Below the pieces are notes generated by a model that was not told the DNA's origin, searched no databases, and was given only the letters and a program-made list of their open reading frames with translations. Positions 3,500 through 40,506 of a stretch of DNA of 64,000 nt are shown here, piece after piece; the stretch's first letter is position 1, and each line of letters starts with the position of its first letter. This DNA is from Bdellovibrionales bacterium (GTDB taxonomy: Bacteria > Bdellovibrionota > Bdellovibrionia > Bdellovibrionales > JAUICD01): assembly GCA_965203275.1 (NCBI GenBank), contig OZ241865.1:800001-864000 (forward strand), given 5' to 3'. The translations under genes were made by a program, and so were the position numbers.

Positions 3500-4010
3500 A
3501 CGGATATTCTCCCTCCGGGACCCCGGCAACAAAAGGATTATCCCTAACCCCACCCACCGCCCTTCGATTCTGCTTTTTTCCATTTTATTTTTATTTGAGG
3601 ATAGGGCAGTGTGAGCCTTCCGAAGTCCTCAATTGAGCTTGCTTTTAAGGAGCAAGCTCAATTTGCGGAAGATCTTCAGTCTCCCACTGCCCCATCCTCT
3701 CCCTAATTATTTTTTGTTTGATGGTTACGCAGAATCTAAAAAAAATAAAAAAACAAAAAAAAAGAACTTTTTCCCTAACATGGTGTTAAGAGAAAAAAGG
3801 ATCCTTCCCTACTCAAAATGAGCGGATTTTTTAGGTGTTGCCTATTTTGTCAAAGGCGAAAGCCTTTGCAGGCAACACCAAAAAACACACCAGAGGTGTG
3901 GCTCATTTTGAGTGAAACAGACCACTTTTAGTGAAACAACTCCTTAACATGAAGTAAAAAAATGAGGACATCCTTCTTCCTAAAATTGAACAAGCTTTTG
4001 AAGCAAATAT
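3500..4010. repeat. Mosaic repeat array (modules D/C + A)
   Basis: ATCCCTAACCCCACCCACCGCCCTTCGATTCTGC at 3540. Full module A at ~3810-3918. Confidence 0.9.
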
Positions 4011-4020
4011 AGGGTTGGTT

Positions 4021-5082
4021 TTATTCTGTAGCACCGGCTGCTTTTAATATTTTTTCAATCCCAGGATATATTACTAGATCTAAAGCCTTCCGGCCACGTG
4101 CGTTTTGAAGATTGAAGTCTGCTCCGGCTGCTAGCAATAACTTTACAATCTCAGTATGGCCGTAATGACTAGCATACATTAAAGCCGTCCAGCCTTTTTT
4201 GTTTTGATGATTGACGTTAGCACCGGCCTTTAGCAATAGCCTTACCATATCAGGATCCGCAAACGCTTCATAGCTAGCCAATATTAAAGCAGTATCACCC
4301 TCGTTGTTTTGAATATTGAAGTCCGCTCCGGCCTCTAGCAATAGCCTTACAGTATCAATCTTAGAATATCCAAACCTATCCTTGCTAGCCATCATTAAGA
4401 CCGTCATGCCATTATTGCTTTGAATATCAGGATCGGCATTGGCCTCTAGCAAAACCTTTACAACCTCAGCATGATCTCTTGCAACCATTAAAGCTGTCCA
4501 GCCTTTTTTGTTTTGATGATTGACGTTAGCTCCGGCCTTTAATAATAGCTTTACAATCTCAGCATTTCCTGCATACGTTAAAACTGTGCCGCCATATTTG
4601 TTTTGATCGTGGACGTTAGCTCCGGCCTCTAATAATAGCTTTACAATCTCAGCGTTGCTTGCATACATTAAAGCTGTCCAGCCATTTGGATCTTGATGAT
4701 GGACGTTCGCTCCGGCCTCTAGCAATAGCTTTACAACCTCAGTATGGCCTGCTTTACTAGCCAATATTAAAGCTGTATTGCCACGGTTGGTTTGAATATT
4801 GATGTCTGCCCCGGCCTCTAGCAACTCTAGCAATAGCTTTACAACCTCAGTATGGCCATTTGCACTAGCCAATATTAAAGCTGTCCAGCCACGATCGGAT
4901 TGCATCTTGACGTTTGCTCCGGCCTCTAGCAATAACTTTACAACTGTAAGACGACCGTGTTGAGCTTCATCTAGTAATGCATGATCAAGCTCCAATTGCC
5001 TTGTTGGCATAAGGCTTTCAGCACAAGCCCATAGAGAATCACTAGCCACAAGCAAAAGAATAAAAAGTATATTTTTCGTCAT
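4021..5082 (-). CDS. Secreted ankyrin-repeat protein (~9 repeats)
   Basis: Signal peptide, then repeated GWTALxxAsxxGHtEvVKLLLEAGAnVN motifs. Confidence 0.95.
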   Translation of the reverse strand: MTKNILFILLLVASDSLWACAESLMPTRQLELDHALLDEAQHGRLTVVKLLLEAGANVKMQSDRGWTALILASANGHTEVVKLLLELLEAGADINIQTNRGNTALILASKAGHTEVVKLLLEAGANVHHQDPNGWTALMYASNAEIVKLLLEAGANVHDQNKYGGTVLTYAGNAEIVKLLLKAGANVNHQNKKGWTALMVARDHAEVVKVLLEANADPDIQSNNGMTVLMMASKDRFGYSKIDTVRLLLEAGADFNIQNNEGDTALILASYEAFADPDMVRLLLKAGANVNHQNKKGWTALMYASHYGHTEIVKLLLAAGADFNLQNARGRKALDLVIYPGIEKILKAAGATE

Positions 5083-5098
5083 TTGACATCCTGTTGTT

Positions 5099-5220
5099 GT
5101 TTCACTAAAAGTTAAGGAAAAAGTTCCCTTTGACTTGATGCTGGGTTGTCAGATCCCGGATCCCGGAAAAATATCCTTTCTTTCCCTAACCTCATGTTAA
5201 AGAAAAAGCAATTTTCCTTC
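5099..5220. repeat. Short repeat array in the 5' UTR of the ankyrin gene
   Basis: TTTCACTAAAAG, GATCCCGGATCCCGG and TTCCCTAAC..GTTAA motifs. Confidence 0.8.
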
Positions 5221-5222
5221 TT

Positions 5223-5258
5223 TTTTGATTTTATAACAGCATATATCTAAAAAGTCCA
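5223..5258 (-). promoter_or_regulatory. Putative sigma70 promoter shared with the ankyrin paralog
   Basis: Minus strand TGGACTTTTTAGATATATGCTGTTATAAAAT is nearly identical to TTGACTTTTTAGATGTGTGATGTTATAAAAT at ~44270-44306. Confidence 0.55.
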
Positions 5259-37568: not shown

Positions 37569-37636
37569 ATTTATAGCTATAGAACTTTATTTTAGTAATA
37601 AGGAAATTATTTGAAACTATATTACTATATTACTAC

Positions 37637-38515
37637 TGTTTCCTTAACATGTTGTCAAGAAACGAGGAGGTCCTCCCTACTCAAAGTGAACAAGCTTTCT
37701 AGGTTGCCAGCCTTGATGAAGGAACTTTTTCCTTAACATCCTGTTAAGAAATGAAGGGATTCTCTCTACTAAAAGTGGTCAAGCTTTCTAGGTTGCCAGC
37801 CTTGATGAAGGAACTTTTTCCTTAACATGAAGTAAAAAAATGAAGGGATCCTCCTTACTCAAAGTGAACAGGCTTTCTAGGTTGCCAGCATTTGAGAAGG
37901 CGATAGCCTTCGGCTGGCAACCAGAAAGTGGCCAGAGGCCAGTTCACTTTGAGTGAACCAACTAACTTCCTACTAAAAGTAAACGGACTTTTGAGGTAGC
38001 CAGCCTTGATAAAGGAACTTTTTCCTTAACATCGTGTTAAAAGAGGAAAGGATCCTTCCTACTAAAAGTGGTCAGGCTTTCTAGGTTGCCAGCCTTGATG
38101 AAGGAACTTTTTCCTTAACATCCTGTTAAGAAATGAAGGGATTCTCTCTACTAAAAGTGGTCAAGCTTTCTAGGCGATGACCATTTTGTCAAAGGCGTAA
38201 GCCTTTGCGGTCATCGCCAGAAAGTGACCAGAGGTCAGACCACTTTTAGTGAAACAACTCCCTCCTTACTCAAAGTGAACAGGCTTTCTAGGTTGCCAGC
38301 CTTGATGAAGGAACTTTTTCCTTAACATGTGGTCAAGAGACGAAGAGATCCTCCTTACTAAAATTGAACAGGCTTTTGAGGCAGTTAGCCTTTGATCGAC
38401 GGCGGTAGCCGTCGGGCTAACTGCCCAAAAGTGACCAGAGGTCAGTTCAATTTTAGGGAAACAGAGGTCAGTTCAATTTTAGGGAAACAGAGGTCAGTTC
38501 ACTTTGAGTGAAACA
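37637..38515. repeat. Mosaic repeat array (full and half module A units)
   Basis: Seven TTCCTTAACAT junctions and recurring GGTTGCCAGCCTTGATGAAGGAAC half-units. Confidence 0.93.
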
Positions 38516-39153
38516 GAAGTCAGCTCTTTTTCTGTTAAAATCCAATCCATAAGTACGTCGTTTTCCTCATGAGGAAGGTCTTTAAGATAAATTTGTTGAG
38601 AGAAGATAAGGGCTATTTTTGTGCCTTTAAATTTACAGAGTGTTCTGTCATAATAACCCTTGCCATACCCTAACCTATGCCCATTGAGATCAACAGTAAG
38701 GGCAGGACAAAAGATAGCTCTGATGTCACTGAGAGGAATGACTTGTGAAGCTGTATCAGATGGTTCTTTGATTCCCCATTTATTTTCTTTCCAAATATTT
38801 TGTGGATCTAATCGCTGATGAAACTCTAAAAGACTGTCTTTGATTTTAGGATAAACCCATTTAAGATGACTATACATTTGTTCAAGAGCAAGTGGATTAA
38901 ATTCTGAATGAATGGGACAGTAGGATCCAAAAAAACCAGATTCATCTTTTAAAAAAGAAATATATTTTAATGCTTTTTTTTCAGTTAAAAACTTCTCTTC
39001 TAATGTAGAGAATAAATTATTTCTCAAATTTATAAATTGTTTACGTAGATGCTTTTTTTGCAGATATAGATGATTTTGAGAAGATAGCTTTGTTGATTTT
39101 TTAGACATGAGGGGTTTTAAGGTCAGATAGAATAGCTTGAACTTTATTTTCAA
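38494..39153 (-). CDS. ygfA: 5-formyltetrahydrofolate cyclo-ligase (likely start ~39108)
   Basis: GIKEP, G.RLGYGKGYYDR, LPHEENDVLMDWILTE. Confidence 0.92.
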   Translation of the reverse strand: MKIKFKLFYLTLKPLMSKKSTKLSSQNHLYLQKKHLRKQFINLRNNLFSTLEEKFLTEKKALKYISFLKDESGFFGSYCPIHSEFNPLALEQMYSHLKWVYPKIKDSLLEFHQRLDPQNIWKENKWGIKEPSDTASQVIPLSDIRAIFCPALTVDLNGHRLGYGKGYYDRTLCKFKGTKIALIFSQQIYLKDLPHEENDVLMDWILTEKELTSVSLKVN

Positions 39154-39463
39154 TTTGATCCAGTTCAGAAAGAGTATGTTTTTTTAAAAGGATATGATCT
39201 TCTGCAATATTGAGCGCTGTTAATATTGCTGCCATTTGAAAGGAGCCACTTTTCATGGAATCACGTGCTTTTGTGAATTTTTGATTCACATAATTGGCTA
39301 ACTGCTTGATTGTTTCTTCATTATATGATGATTTTAATTTAAGGTTCATTCCGCCTACATTTATTGTAAAGAATTCTTTTTTGACTTGGTTATTTGTAAT
39401 ATTTTTATTGATACTCATAATTAAACTCCTTAACAACGGATGCATCAGAAAGCACATAAACAT
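39101..39463 (-). CDS. zapA: Cell division protein ZapA
   Basis: INVGG..LKLKS, LANYVNQK, AAILTALNIAE. Canonical synteny with ygfA. Confidence 0.85.
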   Translation of the reverse strand: MFMCFLMHPLLRSLIMSINKNITNNQVKKEFFTINVGGMNLKLKSSYNEETIKQLANYVNQKFTKARDSMKSGSFQMAAILTALNIAEDHILLKKHTLSELDQIENKVQAILSDLKTPHV

Positions 39464-39794
39464 CTACATTGACATATAATGGTTATAAATTTTAGTTGTG
39501 TTCTAGGCGTCCGTTTGTTCTATATTTGTTTTACATAAATCGCTACTATTCATAAATATTTAAACAATTATCAATCAAGAAGTACAATGCTGTTTTCATT
39601 ATCATATATAATTTTGTTTCTTGATCCATTGAGTTTACAGTTATGGTATTTACCATACCTGGTTTTATTATATAGTTTTTTAAAATGCCTGCCAAGTGTT
39701 TTATCTTATAAAAAATAGATTGCATGGCCAATCTAAAATATTTGTGATCTGCCATAGTTTAAAAATATGCTAAGGGTTTATATGAAATATTCTC

Positions 39795-40506
39795 TTAATA
39801 TGGTGTTGATCCTGGATCCGGGACCCGGCAACAGGGATCCGGCAAACGGGCATCAGGTCTTAAAAATGACCTTTTTCCTTAACATGTAGTTAAGAGACGA
39901 AAGGATCCACCCCTACTCAAAATAAATGGATTTTCTAGGCAGTTAGCCTTTGATCAACGGCGATAAGCCGTTGGGCTAACCATTAGAAGGATGTTTTCCT
40001 TAACATGATGTTAAGAAATGAAAGGGTCCTTTTCCCGGGATCTGGGATCTGGCAACCCGGCATCAAAAAGAACTCTTTTTCCTTAACATGTAGTTAAGAG
40101 ACGAGGAGATCCTCCCCTACTAAAAGTAAACGGACTTTTGAGGTTGCCAGCATTTAAGAAGGCGAAAGCCTTCGGCTGGCAACCCAAAAGTGACCAGAGG
40201 TCAGTTTACTTTTAGTGAAAATCAAATGAGGCAATGACCATTTTGCCAATGGCAAAAAAAGTGAAATAAATATCTTGTTTCCTTAACATCGTGTAAAGAG
40301 ACAAAGATATCCTCATTACTCAAAGTGAACAGGCTTTTGAGACAATGACCATTTTGTCAAAGGCGAAAGCCTTTGCGGTCATTGTCCAAAAGTGGCCAGA
40401 GGCCAGTTCACTTTGAGTGAACCAACGACATTGCTCTTTTTAGACAGCGATAGCTGTCAGAGCAATGTCCAAAAGTAGCCAGAGGCTAGTTTACTTTTAG
40501 TGAAAC
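39795..40506. repeat. Mosaic repeat array (A + B)
   Basis: Full module A at ~40117-40221 and 40316-40423. Confidence 0.92.

What the first reader, a model, noticed from the sequence alone, without database searches (positions are those of the whole stretch)
3810..40506. Module A: multicopy ~105-nt three-way-junction element with extensive compensatory covariation
Seen in dozens of full or partial copies (e.g. 3810, 14921, 15188, 15398, 20025, 24857, 30674, 40316). Stem sequences differ between copies but pairing is kept. P1: TACTAAAAGTAAAC/GTTTACTTTTAGT, ACTCAAAATGAGC/GCTCATTTTGAGT, CCTAAAATTGAAC/GTTCAATTTTAGG, ACTAAAAGTGGTC/GACCACTTTTAGT. P2: GGTTGCCAGC/GCTGGCAACC, GGCAGTTAGC/GCTAACTGCC, GGCGATGACC/GGTCATCGCC, GGCATTGCTC/GAGCAATGCC, capped by a 6-bp hairpin with a GNNA loop. 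P3 has an invariant CC-AGA-GG tip with variable arms (TGACC/GGTCA, TAGCC/GGCTA, CACACC/GGTGTG, CATGCC/GGCATG). A bulged A recurs (CTTTCT-A-GG/CC-AGAAAG; CTTTTG-A-GG/CC-CAAAAG) and the element ends in GAAA. Inference: the fold, not the sequence, is selected. It could be a structured RNA (ribozyme or retro-mobile unit) or a folded-ssDNA substrate for an HUH or tyrosine recombinase. I do not recognise it as a described REP, ERIC or attC family.
Basis: partly seen in the sequence, partly recalled or inferred. Interest (0 to 1): 0.88.

Follow-up and report, generated by a model that had tools for sequence, protein, structure and literature searches.

The report
Abundant three-armed hairpin DNA repeat
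The reported element is real: a 145-base non-coding unit that always folds into the same three-armed hairpin while its stem sequences vary, making up about 6% of an uncultured Bdellovibrio-like bacterium's genome. It most likely spreads by copying errors at short shared motifs and not by a dedicated cut-and-paste enzyme.

Summary
The window holds 54 hits, 26 of them full. The genome holds 1,342 hits, 737 full, covering 5.9% of its bases. Pairing is kept in 97.3% of cells against 80.3% in shuffles, and 31 of 41 pairs change on both sides. Paired segments are more tightly associated than physically nearer unpaired ones.

No Rfam family, reverse transcriptase or RAYT/IS200 gene accounts for it in this genome. 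The family was confirmed only in this genus; its apparent presence in a second genus is a binning artefact.

New here:
- Tails almost always face genes.
- Head-to-head dimers share a 47-49-nt centre.
- Filled and empty paralogous sites are joined at direct repeats of 0-23 nt inside shared motifs, and inserts carry pieces of earlier flanks.

This points to short-homology template switching and tandem duplication growing inward from a fixed tail. Rpn-type nuclease genes (45 ORFs) and a PF05635 small gene are tightly linked to the repeats and are candidate helpers.

No RNA data exist. This scan had already flagged the family in other windows of the same genome.

The parts
3770..3917 (+). Full 145-nt unit (head plus three-way junction plus tail).
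   Evidence: nhmmer model positions 1-145; CM 150.8 bits
3918..4005 (+). Orphan tail GACCACTTTTAGTGAAACA stacked behind the full copy, then a 3'-truncated copy (model 3-67).
7538..7826 (-). Two full units in tandem (7538-7677 and 7682-7826). Their tails point towards the gene on the left.
7841..7923 (+). 5'-truncated copy (model 71-145), head-side to the two minus copies.
14687..14833 (-). Full unit; the left arm of a head-to-head dimer.
14834..14881 (.). 48-nt conserved centre of the head-to-head dimer (ATGTTAGGGAAA...TTTTTCCTTAACAT context).
   Evidence: row 814834
14882..15024 (+).
15148..15292 (+).
15295..15320 (+). Stacked 26-nt orphan tail that starts in the P3 loop (GAGGTCAGTTTACTTTTAGTGAAACA).
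15359..15500 (+).
18509..19040 (.). GGGATCY heptamer arrays (18509-18600 and 18949-19040) flanking a full minus unit at 18644-18789.
   Evidence: D10, D15
19120..19425 (+). PF05635 (23S rRNA intervening-sequence protein family) gene embedded in the repeat cluster.
   Evidence: E 6.6e-15
19487..19854 (.). Heptamer arrays (19487-19534 and 19785-19854) around a full minus unit at 19578-19723.
19864..20936 (+). Array of 8 plus-strand hits. Full units are at 19985-20129, 20308-20452 and 20671-20815. Partial copies are at 19864-19973, 20186-20296, 20460-20536, 20549-20659 and 20823-20936.
   Evidence: (D14, 363-nt period)
21600..21835 (-). Partial copy (model 61-145) plus a full unit at 21691-21835, between a 187-aa ORF and leuS.
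24670..25599 (+). Full units at 24670-24816, 24822-24960 and 25455-25599, plus a head fragment at 25229-25265, between leuS and recA.
27657..27953 (-). Orphan tail (27657-27697) and a 3'-truncated copy (27843-27953).
28080..28427 (+). Full units at 28080-28223 and 28286-28427. The tail abuts the start of the tandem-HTH gene.
30381..31366 (+). 5'-truncated copy at 30381-30489, full units at 30634-30778 and 31222-31366, and truncated copies at 30998-31082 and 31099-31206.
36375..36816 (-). Full unit at 36375-36518 plus three stacked 3'-truncated heads (36532-36607, 36617-36727, 36741-36816).
   Evidence: (D19)
37639..38515 (+). Stack next to tRNA-Arg. It holds five truncated heads (three of them ending at GCCAGCCTTGATGA), full units at 37817-37957, 38110-38254 and 38317-38461, and then two stacked 26-nt tails (about 38464-38515).
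39874..40505 (+). Truncated copies (39874-39983, 39995-40030), full units at 40078-40220 and 40278-40421, and a 5'-truncated copy at 40427-40505. The last tail faces the tmRNA gene.
41162..41196 (-).
44344..44386 (-).

Best explanation
Module A is the folded core of a gene-less, selfish DNA repeat. The full unit is 145 nt: a head, a three-way junction and a tail. It is one module of a larger modular repeat system that also contains GGGATCY heptamer arrays and A-rich leaders.

Shown here: the element is intergenic DNA, confirmed only in one genus among the genomes searched. Its pairing is constrained beyond simple linkage. It is organised with tails outward, and its insertion junctions are irregular.

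Inferred: it multiplies mainly by local tandem duplication and by short-homology template switching (copy-choice). The hairpins stall replication. The nascent end re-anneals at one of the short motifs shared by all copies: the head motif CCTTAACATGGTGTT, the tail motif TTTT[AG]AG[TG]GAAACA, or CAGA in the P3 loop. New material is therefore added on the 5' side of a resident tail, which stays fixed next to unique DNA.

Complementarity is kept for two reasons. Whole hairpin arms are swapped as contiguous blocks. In addition, the folded top strand is either selected or corrected by intrastrand templating.

The genome's many Rpn-type PD-(D/E)XK nucleases, which are reported to promote RecA-independent template-switch recombination, are the leading candidate helper. 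This link is not demonstrated.
For: (1) Location. The element is intergenic: only 2,050 of 151,816 element bases lie in called ORFs.

(2) Filled and empty paralogous sites. 22 of 364 blocks queried gave candidates, and I inspected 11.
- Junction direct repeats are of variable length: none, 1, about 5, about 6, 10, 11, about 11, 15, 17 and 23 nt. There is no fixed duplication.
- Junctions sit inside shared head or tail motifs (b344, b399, b158, b145, b160).
- One insert (b355) carries 39 and 17 nt of an earlier flank.
- A solitary tail-like motif is the target in b160 and b145.

(3) Tandem duplication with flank. At the rpsQ-rplN spacer of the congener and of a 90%-identical relative, the tandem unit is 201 nt and includes the last 35 nt of rpsQ. 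The same site is an empty 20-nt spacer in this genome.

(4) Block swapping. Orthologous copies at that locus carry different P2b, P2c and P3 alleles, while copies within each array are alike. Direct neighbours are more than 90% alike in 24-35% of pairs, against 5.7% of random pairs.

(5) Tails face outward.
- Within 100 nt upstream of a gene, 118 copies are co-oriented and 16 opposite. Downstream, 140 are opposite and 71 co-oriented.
- Adjacent pairs: 155 head-to-head against 51 tail-to-tail. Two-copy clusters: 16 against 1.
- The gap to the next gene is 65 nt on the tail side and 205 nt on the head side.

(6) Truncated copies. There are 1,542 tail motifs against 981 hits that reach the tail. 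Breakpoints of truncated copies cluster at helix boundaries.

(7) No dedicated enzyme found. Y1_Tnp gave 0 hits and RVT_1 gave 0 hits in a one-contig genome.

(8) Rpn link.
- 45 PDDEXK_2 ORFs carry tetrapeptide repeats.
- 93% have an element within 300 nt, against 29% of all 1,740 ORFs. 51% have one within 500 nt on both sides, against 5%.
- 19 have a co-oriented tail within 100 nt upstream, against 1 opposite.
- RpnA is reported to stimulate RecA-independent recombination by a template-switch model (PMC5350276: abstract and section 30 read).
Against: - Direction is known for only one junction class, the interrupted Rpn gene. The other filled/empty pairs could be deletions between direct repeats, not insertions.
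- 737 near-full copies at 501 blocks imply dispersal to many unlinked sites. Copy-choice alone is an inefficient way to achieve that.
- The near-invariant loop G and A, the CCAGAGG tip and the bulged A suggest a specific protein or a folded-strand requirement that this model does not need.
- In the congener, none of the 5 PDDEXK_2 hits has a tail upstream, although that genome is also full of the element.
- PDDEXK_2 is also multi-copy in a relative with no element (G022, 14 hits).
- Many of the 45 ORFs are fragments, and four loci are copies of one interrupted gene. This inflates the association.
- My gene calls are simple longest-ORF calls.
- G:T against A:C mismatches are only weakly skewed: 113 against 85 events, p = 0.055.
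Confidence: 0.5

Rival explanations
1. A dedicated, still unrecognised enzyme moves the element by recognising the folded single strand, as RAYT does for REPINs or TnpA does for IS200/IS605. Candidates are a divergent Rpn-type PD-(D/E)XK nuclease, or a system built around the PF05635 four-helix protein.
For: - Strand-specific conserved unpaired bases: G and A of the GNNA loop, the CCAGAGG tip and the bulged A.
- A sharp common right end, and the frequent CAGA junction in the exposed P3 loop.
- 116 head-to-head pairs, 77 of them with a centre of 0-99 nt (most often 47-49 nt), resembling REPIN doublets (PMC3116915, passages read).
- Dispersal to 501 blocks.
- The Rpn association.
- 12 of 14 PF05635 genes are followed by a co-oriented head, about 150 nt away in most cases.
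- Head sequence and architecture are conserved between genomes whose LigA is only 66% identical.
Against: - No Y1_Tnp and no RVT_1 in this genome.
- The congener's single IS200 is unrelated.
- Junctions show neither a constant target nor a constant duplication.
- Dimer arms are never alike: 0 of 94 pairs exceed 90% identity. REPIN arms are alike.
- Rpn proteins are reported not to act as transposases (PMC10400941, section 5).
- The Rpn-tail adjacency is not seen in the congener.
Confidence: 0.22
2. The element acts as a structured RNA, for example a ribozyme, a regulatory or stabilising 3WJ domain in mRNAs, or a retro-mobile unit. The covariation would then reflect selection on the RNA fold.
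For: - Strong covariation and GNNA tetraloops.
- G:T wobble pairs outnumber A:C on the top strand: 285 against 155 copies, and 113 against 85 events.
- Three to four sense copies sit inside the essential rpsQ-rplN operon of the congener, so they must be transcribed and read through there.
- Gene-proximal upstream copies are 88% sense (118 of 134).
Against: - Overall orientation in same-direction gene spacers is near even: 382 sense and 335 antisense.
- 35% of the listed loop alleles have a pyrimidine at loop position 3, which is atypical for RNA GNRA loops (my own knowledge; counts).
- One-sided (wobble) intermediates are very rare among window copies.
- Both strands fold equally well.
- No Rfam family matches.
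- No reverse transcriptase gene.
- There are hundreds of truncated and stacked fragments.
- Copy number and position differ between related genomes at the one orthologous locus compared.
Confidence: 0.13
3. The repeats have been domesticated for a host function in cis. Possibilities are orientation-dependent transcription terminators or insulators at gene borders, or binding sites that organise the chromosome, for instance for the 124-member tandem-HTH protein family.
For: - The tails-face-genes rule is stronger at 5' ends (88%) than at 3' ends (66%).
- Terminator-like hairpin plus T-run motifs occur in the element: 54 found in 18 kb against 15 expected, most of them at P3 or the head palindrome.
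- A very large family of tandem HTH_Tnp_1 proteins exists.
Against: - Terminator-like motifs occur on both strands.
- The element is missing from the three other genomes searched in the same family, apart from mis-binned contigs. It is also missing at the orthologous rpsQ-rplN site of this genome.
- HTH arrays also occur in an element-free relative's core contig.
- Tail-seeded growth explains the orientation rule without any function.
Confidence: 0.1

Closest known systems
REP / REPIN elements mobilised by RAYT (PMC3116915, passages read; PMC2817692 and PMC3733652 seen only in a search listing)
   Same: Both are abundant intergenic hairpin-forming repeats. In both, inverted doublets are a recurring unit, compensatory changes occur in the hairpin, and tandem clusters include flanking sequence. 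Both are proposed to fold as ssDNA or mRNA.
   Different: No RAYT/Y1 gene exists in this genome. The unit is 145 nt with a three-way junction, not a 20-40-nt stem-loop. The two dimer arms are never alike. Each helix has several interchangeable alleles. Junctions are irregular.
BOX elements of Streptococcus pneumoniae (PMC3049150, passages read)
   Same: Both are modular and built from separate boxes whose number varies. Both are tightly folded and intergenic, have no transposase of their own, and can expand to long forms.
   Different: The organism and sequence are unrelated. BOX is reported there to have terminal inverted repeats and target-site duplications. Here a monomer has neither, and the flanking repeats vary from 0 to 23 nt.
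Bacterial MITEs such as Correia or Nezha (PMC3184786 and PMC10969869, search listing and abstracts only)
   Same: Both are small, non-coding, structured, high-copy repeats located next to genes.
   Different: I found no matching transposase, no fixed target-site duplication and no TIR in the monomer. The IS256-like and IS4-like genes of this genome are not associated with the element.
Integron attC sites
   Same: In both, structure is conserved while sequence is not. Both have extrahelical bases and a folded single strand as the proposed active form.
   Different: There are no cassette ORFs between copies (spacing 89-240 nt). The outer ends do not read RYYYAAC...GTTRRRY (that consensus is recalled, not from a call). 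Only two tyrosine recombinases are present, and I did not type them.
ORF-bearing intervening sequences and hairpin-armed PF05635 cassettes
   Same: A PF05635 gene sits among GGGATCY heptamer arrays and structured repeats: 14 copies, 12 of them followed by a co-oriented head.
   Different: The single 23S rRNA gene holds no element. Most element copies have no PF05635 gene nearby.

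Membership tests
REP/REPIN-RAYT | A RAYT (Y1 HUH, PF01797) gene in the genome, usually flanked by its REPs | tested here: not met
   0 hits in G000. 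G001 has 1 hit, but it is an IS200-type TnpA with unrelated end hairpins, 3.5 kb from the nearest full copy.
REP/REPIN-RAYT | Inverted doublets whose two arms pair into one hairpin | tested here: not met
   116 head-to-head pairs exist, but 0 of 94 adjacent -+ pairs exceed 90% identity, with a mean of 0.67 against 0.72 for random pairs. Each arm folds on itself.
MITE (DDE-mobilised) | Terminal inverted repeats and a target-site duplication of fixed length | tested here: not met
   A monomer's ends (TTTCCTTAACAT... and ...AGTGAAACA) are not inverted repeats. No duplication was visible by eye at the ends of the 38 of 47 head-to-head dimers whose ends the script could place. Flanking repeats vary from 0 to 23 nt in the 11 inspected filled/empty pairs.
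MITE (DDE-mobilised) | A resident IS whose ends match the element | tested here: inconclusive
   The IS256-like (9 copies) and IS4-like (6 copies) genes show no spatial association (22% within 300 nt, against 29% background, for IS256). I did not compare their ends with the element.
IS200/IS605-derived PATE | TnpA (Y1) and/or TnpB in the genome, and insertion 3' of a fixed tetra- or pentanucleotide | tested here: not met
   No Y1_Tnp. Left junctions read ...AAAGA|...TTGA|...GAATAA|...GGGAA| and so on, so they are not constant. TnpB was not searched.
Integron attC | Cassette ORFs between sites, an IntI integrase, and R''/R' core sites | tested here: not met
   Arrays are gene-less. There are 2 PF00589 hits per genome, not typed as IntI. 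Core sites are not evident in the consensus.
Any Rfam family (ribozymes, sRNAs, cis-regulators) | A score at or above the family's gathering threshold | tested here: not met
   At gathering threshold the window gives only tmRNA and 3 tRNAs. A permissive scan of 14600-15700 gives only sub-threshold hairpin matches, the best being 48 bits against a threshold of 100.
Retro-mobile element (group II intron, retron, DGR) | A reverse transcriptase gene | tested here: not met
   PF00078 gave 0 hits and 0 candidates in G000. Other RT models were not searched.
Rpn (YhgA-like) nucleases, for the associated genes and not the repeat | A PD-(D/E)XK transposase-like N-domain plus a variable C-terminal tail with four-residue repeats | tested here: met
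   PF12784, E 5e-24. GRQE and GMEK-type repeats are visible in the translations. The feature is as described in PMC10400941 (abstract). Catalytic residues were not checked.

The most novel reading that the evidence does not exclude
The three-armed fold is the working substrate of a previously unknown propagation system. In this reading, Rpn-type PD-(D/E)XK nucleases, perhaps with the PF05635 four-helix protein, nick or break structured repeats. The breaks drive template-switch copying that seeds new units at resident tails. This would give Rpn proteins a natural DNA target. It would also explain how a transposase-less repeat can fill 6% of a genome while keeping its shape.
Probability: 0.15. 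Interest if true: 0.85.

Novelty: new variant of a known kind. Interest (0 to 1): 0.6.

Why it matters
Structured intergenic repeats such as REP, REPIN and BOX are common, but how they spread is known only where a RAYT is present. This family is unusually elaborate. It has a three-way junction and interchangeable covarying alleles in five helices, about 1,300 copies, and 6% of a small host-associated genome. It has no recognisable mobilising enzyme.

The junction evidence offers a concrete and testable alternative: tail-seeded growth by short-homology template switching. The tight link to Rpn nuclease genes offers a possible natural substrate for a protein family whose in vivo targets are unknown.

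It is also a practical warning. Such repeats break short-read assemblies at every cluster. The element-bearing contigs of a relative's bin proved to belong to another organism.

Tried and rejected
- **Replichore bias.** Cumulative GC skew is weak and irregular (-2,015 to +1,127 over 2.57 Mb), so a leading/lagging strand preference could not be tested.
- **Expression.** No RNA holder is listed among 15 runs.
- **Strain polymorphism.** Contigs of 4 runs laid on 14001-32000 break at every repeat cluster and bridge none, so no strain polymorphism could be read.
- **Palindromic duplication.** This was rejected as the origin of the -...-+...+ clusters, because inverted neighbours are less alike than random pairs.
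- **Simple nested insertion.** This was rejected as the explanation of the stacks at 37639-38515. The heads break in the P2 internal loop, but the tails behind them start in the P3 loop.
- **Presence in a second genus.**
  - All 12 G004 hits lie on contigs C1, C4 and C11.
  - C11 is 90% identical and syntenic to G001.
  - G004 has a second, 69%-identical copy of the marker gene.
  - C4 proteins are 64-70% identical to this genome, against 40-60% for a core contig.
  - C1 was not tested this way.
- **Pattern scan of 185,579 species genomes.** The model confirmed only loci of the congener's record, and none of the loci from other records.
- **The 968-aa repeat-protein family next to the 14.7-15.6 kb cluster.** I considered it as a co-distributed candidate. 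It is present in G001 and on the G001-like contigs, but it has no Pfam match. The family I took to be the same one (labelled unk9c in my script, not verified) is only weakly associated with the element.
- **The tandem-HTH family as a specific partner.** It also occurs on an element-free relative's core contig.
- **A promoter in the element.** No consistent sigma-70-like match was found in the element: 35 promoter-like sites in 18 kb against 46 expected.

Full report
**What is there**

The window is G000:C1:800001-864000 of a one-contig, 2.57-Mb, 35% G+C genome. When aligned, the unit is 145 nt and has these parts:
- a 40-nt sequence-conserved head (TTTCCTTAACATGG...GAGGATCCTCCC);
- the tail, GTGAAA(CA).

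Module A consists of:
- P1, 13 bp;
- a long arm made of P2a (with the bulged A), P2b, a T-rich internal loop, and P2c capped by G-N-N-A;
- P3, 5-6 bp, with an AGA loop inside CCAGAGG.

A profile of 21 window copies finds 54 hits in the window (26 full; 5,881 nt). It finds 1,342 hits in the genome (737 full; 5.9% of all bases; 689 on + and 653 on -).

**Is the covariation real?**

Yes, by several independent measures.
- Mutual information over 651 distinct full copies picks out the five helices with no structure given. Variable columns pair in 92-99% of copies.
- On 100 matches (79 distinct) from this window, the congener and G001-like contigs, 97.3% of cells pair against 80.3% in shuffles. 31 of 41 pairs change on both sides. 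Slid controls give 39-47%. That alignment is fitted to the model, which favours the structure.
- Each helix exists in five to eight common alleles that are combined in many ways.

A test of linkage against pairing shows that partners are more strongly associated than nearer non-partners:
- P2c arms 0.74, against 0.37-0.39 with the loop that lies between them;
- P2a arms 0.76, against 0.56-0.58 with the adjoining P2b;
- P3 arms 0.82;
- P1 arms 0.61 although they are 75 nt apart, against 0.49 for P1-3' with the abutting P3-3'.

Co-inheritance of contiguous blocks alone therefore does not explain the pairing. One-sided (wobble) intermediates are very rare.

**DNA or RNA, and which strand?**

- Both strands fold equally well, as DNA or as RNA (z = -8 to -13.5).
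- The loop G and A are near-invariant while the two middle bases vary freely. From general knowledge of sheared G·A loops, this points to the top strand as the folded one. However, 35% of the listed loop alleles have a pyrimidine at position 3, which is unusual for RNA GNRA loops.
- G:T mismatches exceed A:C by 285 to 155 copies, but only by 113 to 85 independent variants (p = 0.055).
- In spacers between same-direction ORFs, 382 copies are sense and 335 antisense.
- No Rfam family reaches its threshold.
- No RNA run is listed, so expression stayed untested.

**Distribution**

The covariance model finds the family in 3 of 41 genomes of the order: this one, its congener G001, and G004.

All 12 G004 hits lie on three small contigs.
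- One of them is 90% identical and syntenic to G001 over about 20 kb.
- G004 has its own second, 69%-identical copy of the marker gene on that contig.

These contigs are mis-binned G001-like DNA, so the family is confirmed in one genus only.

Only the congener's loci passed the model. The record title that one search shows for them reads 'MAG: Bdellovibrionales bacterium'.

Copies near genes are not randomly oriented.
- Within 100 nt upstream of an ORF, 118 are co-oriented and 16 opposite. Downstream, 140 are opposite and 71 co-oriented. In other words, tails face genes.
- Within clusters the order is -...-+...+: 155 head-to-head junctions against 51 tail-to-tail, and 16 against 1 in two-copy clusters.
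- Of 116 head-to-head pairs, 77 have a centre of 0-99 nt, most often a conserved 47-49-nt sequence. The window example is 14687-15024.
- The two arms are never alike: 0 of 94 pairs exceed 90% identity.
- The head side is followed by other repeat modules. 223 of 317 upstream flanks form one similarity network, largely GGGATCY heptamers and A-rich leaders. The gap to the next ORF is 205 nt on the head side and 65 nt on the tail side.
- No target duplication was visible at the dimer ends whose position the script could place, 38 of 47.

**How copies arise**

Three lines of evidence bear on this.

First, the rpsQ-rplN locus.
- The spacer is 20 nt and empty in this genome.
- It holds four sense copies in G001 and three in the G001-like contig.
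- The 201-nt tandem unit there includes the last 35 nt of rpsQ, which marks segmental duplication and not transposition.
- Orthologous copies carry different P2b, P2c and P3 alleles, while neighbours within an array match. This indicates block replacement and homogenisation.

Second, direct neighbours genome-wide are more than 90% alike in 24-35% of pairs, against 5.7% of random pairs.

Third, filled against empty paralogous sites. 22 of 364 blocks gave candidates, and I inspected 11.
- Junctions carry direct repeats of 0 to 23 nt, with no constant length.
- Junctions lie inside motifs that many modules share. One is the head motif CCTTAACATGGTGTT, which also leads heptamer arrays. The other is the tail motif.
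- One insert brought along 39 and 17 nt of an earlier flank.
- In two cases the target is a solitary tail-like motif next to unique DNA, and the new material sits on its 5' side. This explains why tails stay next to genes.
- The only case with known direction is an Rpn-like gene interrupted by a 201-nt block: a 50-nt GGGATC/GGCATCAG leader plus the 145-nt unit, bounded by an 11-nt repeat. It is now present at four paralogous loci.

These are the marks of short-homology template switching and duplication. They are not the marks of an enzyme with a fixed cut.

**Enzymes**

- Y1_Tnp and RVT_1 are not found in this genome.
- The congener has one ordinary IS200 unrelated to the element.
- Each genome has two tyrosine recombinases.

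Among the paralogous ORF families, the 45-member PDDEXK_2 (Rpn-like) family stands out.
- 93% have an element within 300 nt, against 29% of all ORFs.
- 51% have one within 500 nt on both sides, against 5%.
- A co-oriented tail lies within 100 nt upstream in 19 ORFs, against 1 opposite.

Published work on Rpn proteins:
- RpnA is a non-specific endonuclease that raises RecA-independent recombination, interpreted as template switching (PMC5350276: abstract and sections 18, 30 and 31 read).
- Rpn proteins are toxin/intragenic-antitoxin pairs with four-residue repeats. They lack terminal repeats and duplications, and their arrays arise by tandem duplication (PMC10400941: abstract and section 5 read).

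Caveats on the Rpn link:
- Many of the 45 ORFs are fragments.
- The adjacency is not seen at the 5 Rpn hits of the congener.
- Another relative has 14 Rpn hits and no element.

The PF05635 gene has 14 copies, one at 19120-19425. In 12 of the 14 it is followed by a co-oriented head. The 23S rRNA gene itself holds no element.

**Comparison with known families**

The element works most like REPINs: hairpin repeats, inverted doublets, compensatory changes, and tandem clusters that include flank (PMC3116915, passages read). It also resembles the modular BOX elements (PMC3049150, passages read). It fails the defining tests of REP/RAYT, DDE-type MITEs, IS200/605 derivatives, attC sites and every Rfam family (see the membership table).

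Of seven literature searches sent, one failed on a disallowed character and was resent, the Rpn query. The five topical ones returned no description of this family. Supplements were not consulted.

**Earlier notes of this scan**

Earlier notes had already described the same family in other windows of this genome: about 1,300 copies, REP/REPIN-like, enzyme unknown, nesting at CAGA, and a tie to PF05635. I re-derived the counts independently.

New in this report:
- the tails-outward rule;
- the dimer centre;
- the binning artefact;
- the filled/empty junction analysis;
- the Rpn association.

**Verdict**

This is a real and striking family of structured selfish DNA repeats, and a new variant of a known kind. 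The proposed mechanism is tail-seeded growth by template switching and duplication, possibly helped by Rpn nucleases. It is inferred from junctions and layout and has not been demonstrated.

Noticed in passing
window 28464-30377 (+), and 123 paralogues genome-wide: A 637-aa protein made of tandem 59-aa HTH_Tnp_1/HTH_23 repeats (177-nt DNA period). With 124 ORFs of 114-2,223 aa, it is the largest paralogous family in the genome. Similar arrays occur on a core contig of an element-free relative.
   Followed up: partly
G000 genome-wide, e.g. C1:1039298-1040491, 1135829-1137040, 367734-368924: There are 45 Rpn-like PD-(D/E)XK ORFs in several subfamilies (25-90% identity), with GRQE or GMEK four-residue repeats. 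Many are fragmented. Four loci carry the same 201-nt repeat insertion.
   Followed up: partly
window 19120-19425 (+): A PF05635 (23S rRNA intervening-sequence protein family) gene sits among GGGATCY heptamer arrays. There are 14 copies in the genome, and none lies in the rRNA operon.
   Followed up: partly
G004 contigs C1, C4, C11 (L030, L031, L038-L041): These contigs of a relative's bin belong to a G001-like organism. C11 has 90% nucleotide identity and synteny with G001, and a marker gene is present twice in the bin. This is a binning artefact that would falsely widen the element's range.
   Followed up: yes
L037 2630-3620 (G001) and L030 6850-7760: Three to four sense copies of the element sit between rpsQ and rplN inside the ribosomal-protein operon. 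The same spacer is 20 nt in this genome.
   Followed up: yes
window 11743-14649 (+): A 968-aa protein with no Pfam match: a conserved N-terminal region of about 400 aa followed by roughly 50-aa repeats. It has more than 15 paralogues in G001 and several on the G001-like contigs. It was not found in G002 or G003 with this query.
   Followed up: partly
window 55864-56365: Three tandem copies of a 140-nt repeat (92-95% alike) overlap the last 55 nt of the 1,273-aa STAND-like ORF (52097-55918) and run on behind it. That ORF follows a DUF4007 gene (51244-52110), so this may be a defence locus.
   Followed up: no
window 4021-5082 (-) and 43862-44230 (-): Ankyrin-repeat proteins, consistent with a host-associated lifestyle. 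DNA runs that hold this stretch include sponge metagenomes.
   Followed up: no
L030 7320-7460 (G001-like contig) and c11 28774-28980: Other hairpin repeat families, unrelated or only distantly related to the 145-nt unit, are inserted in the relative but not in G001 at the orthologous sites.
   Followed up: no
L132 4425-4919 (G001): A single IS200-type TnpA (164 aa) with its own GC-rich end hairpins. This genome has none.
   Followed up: yes
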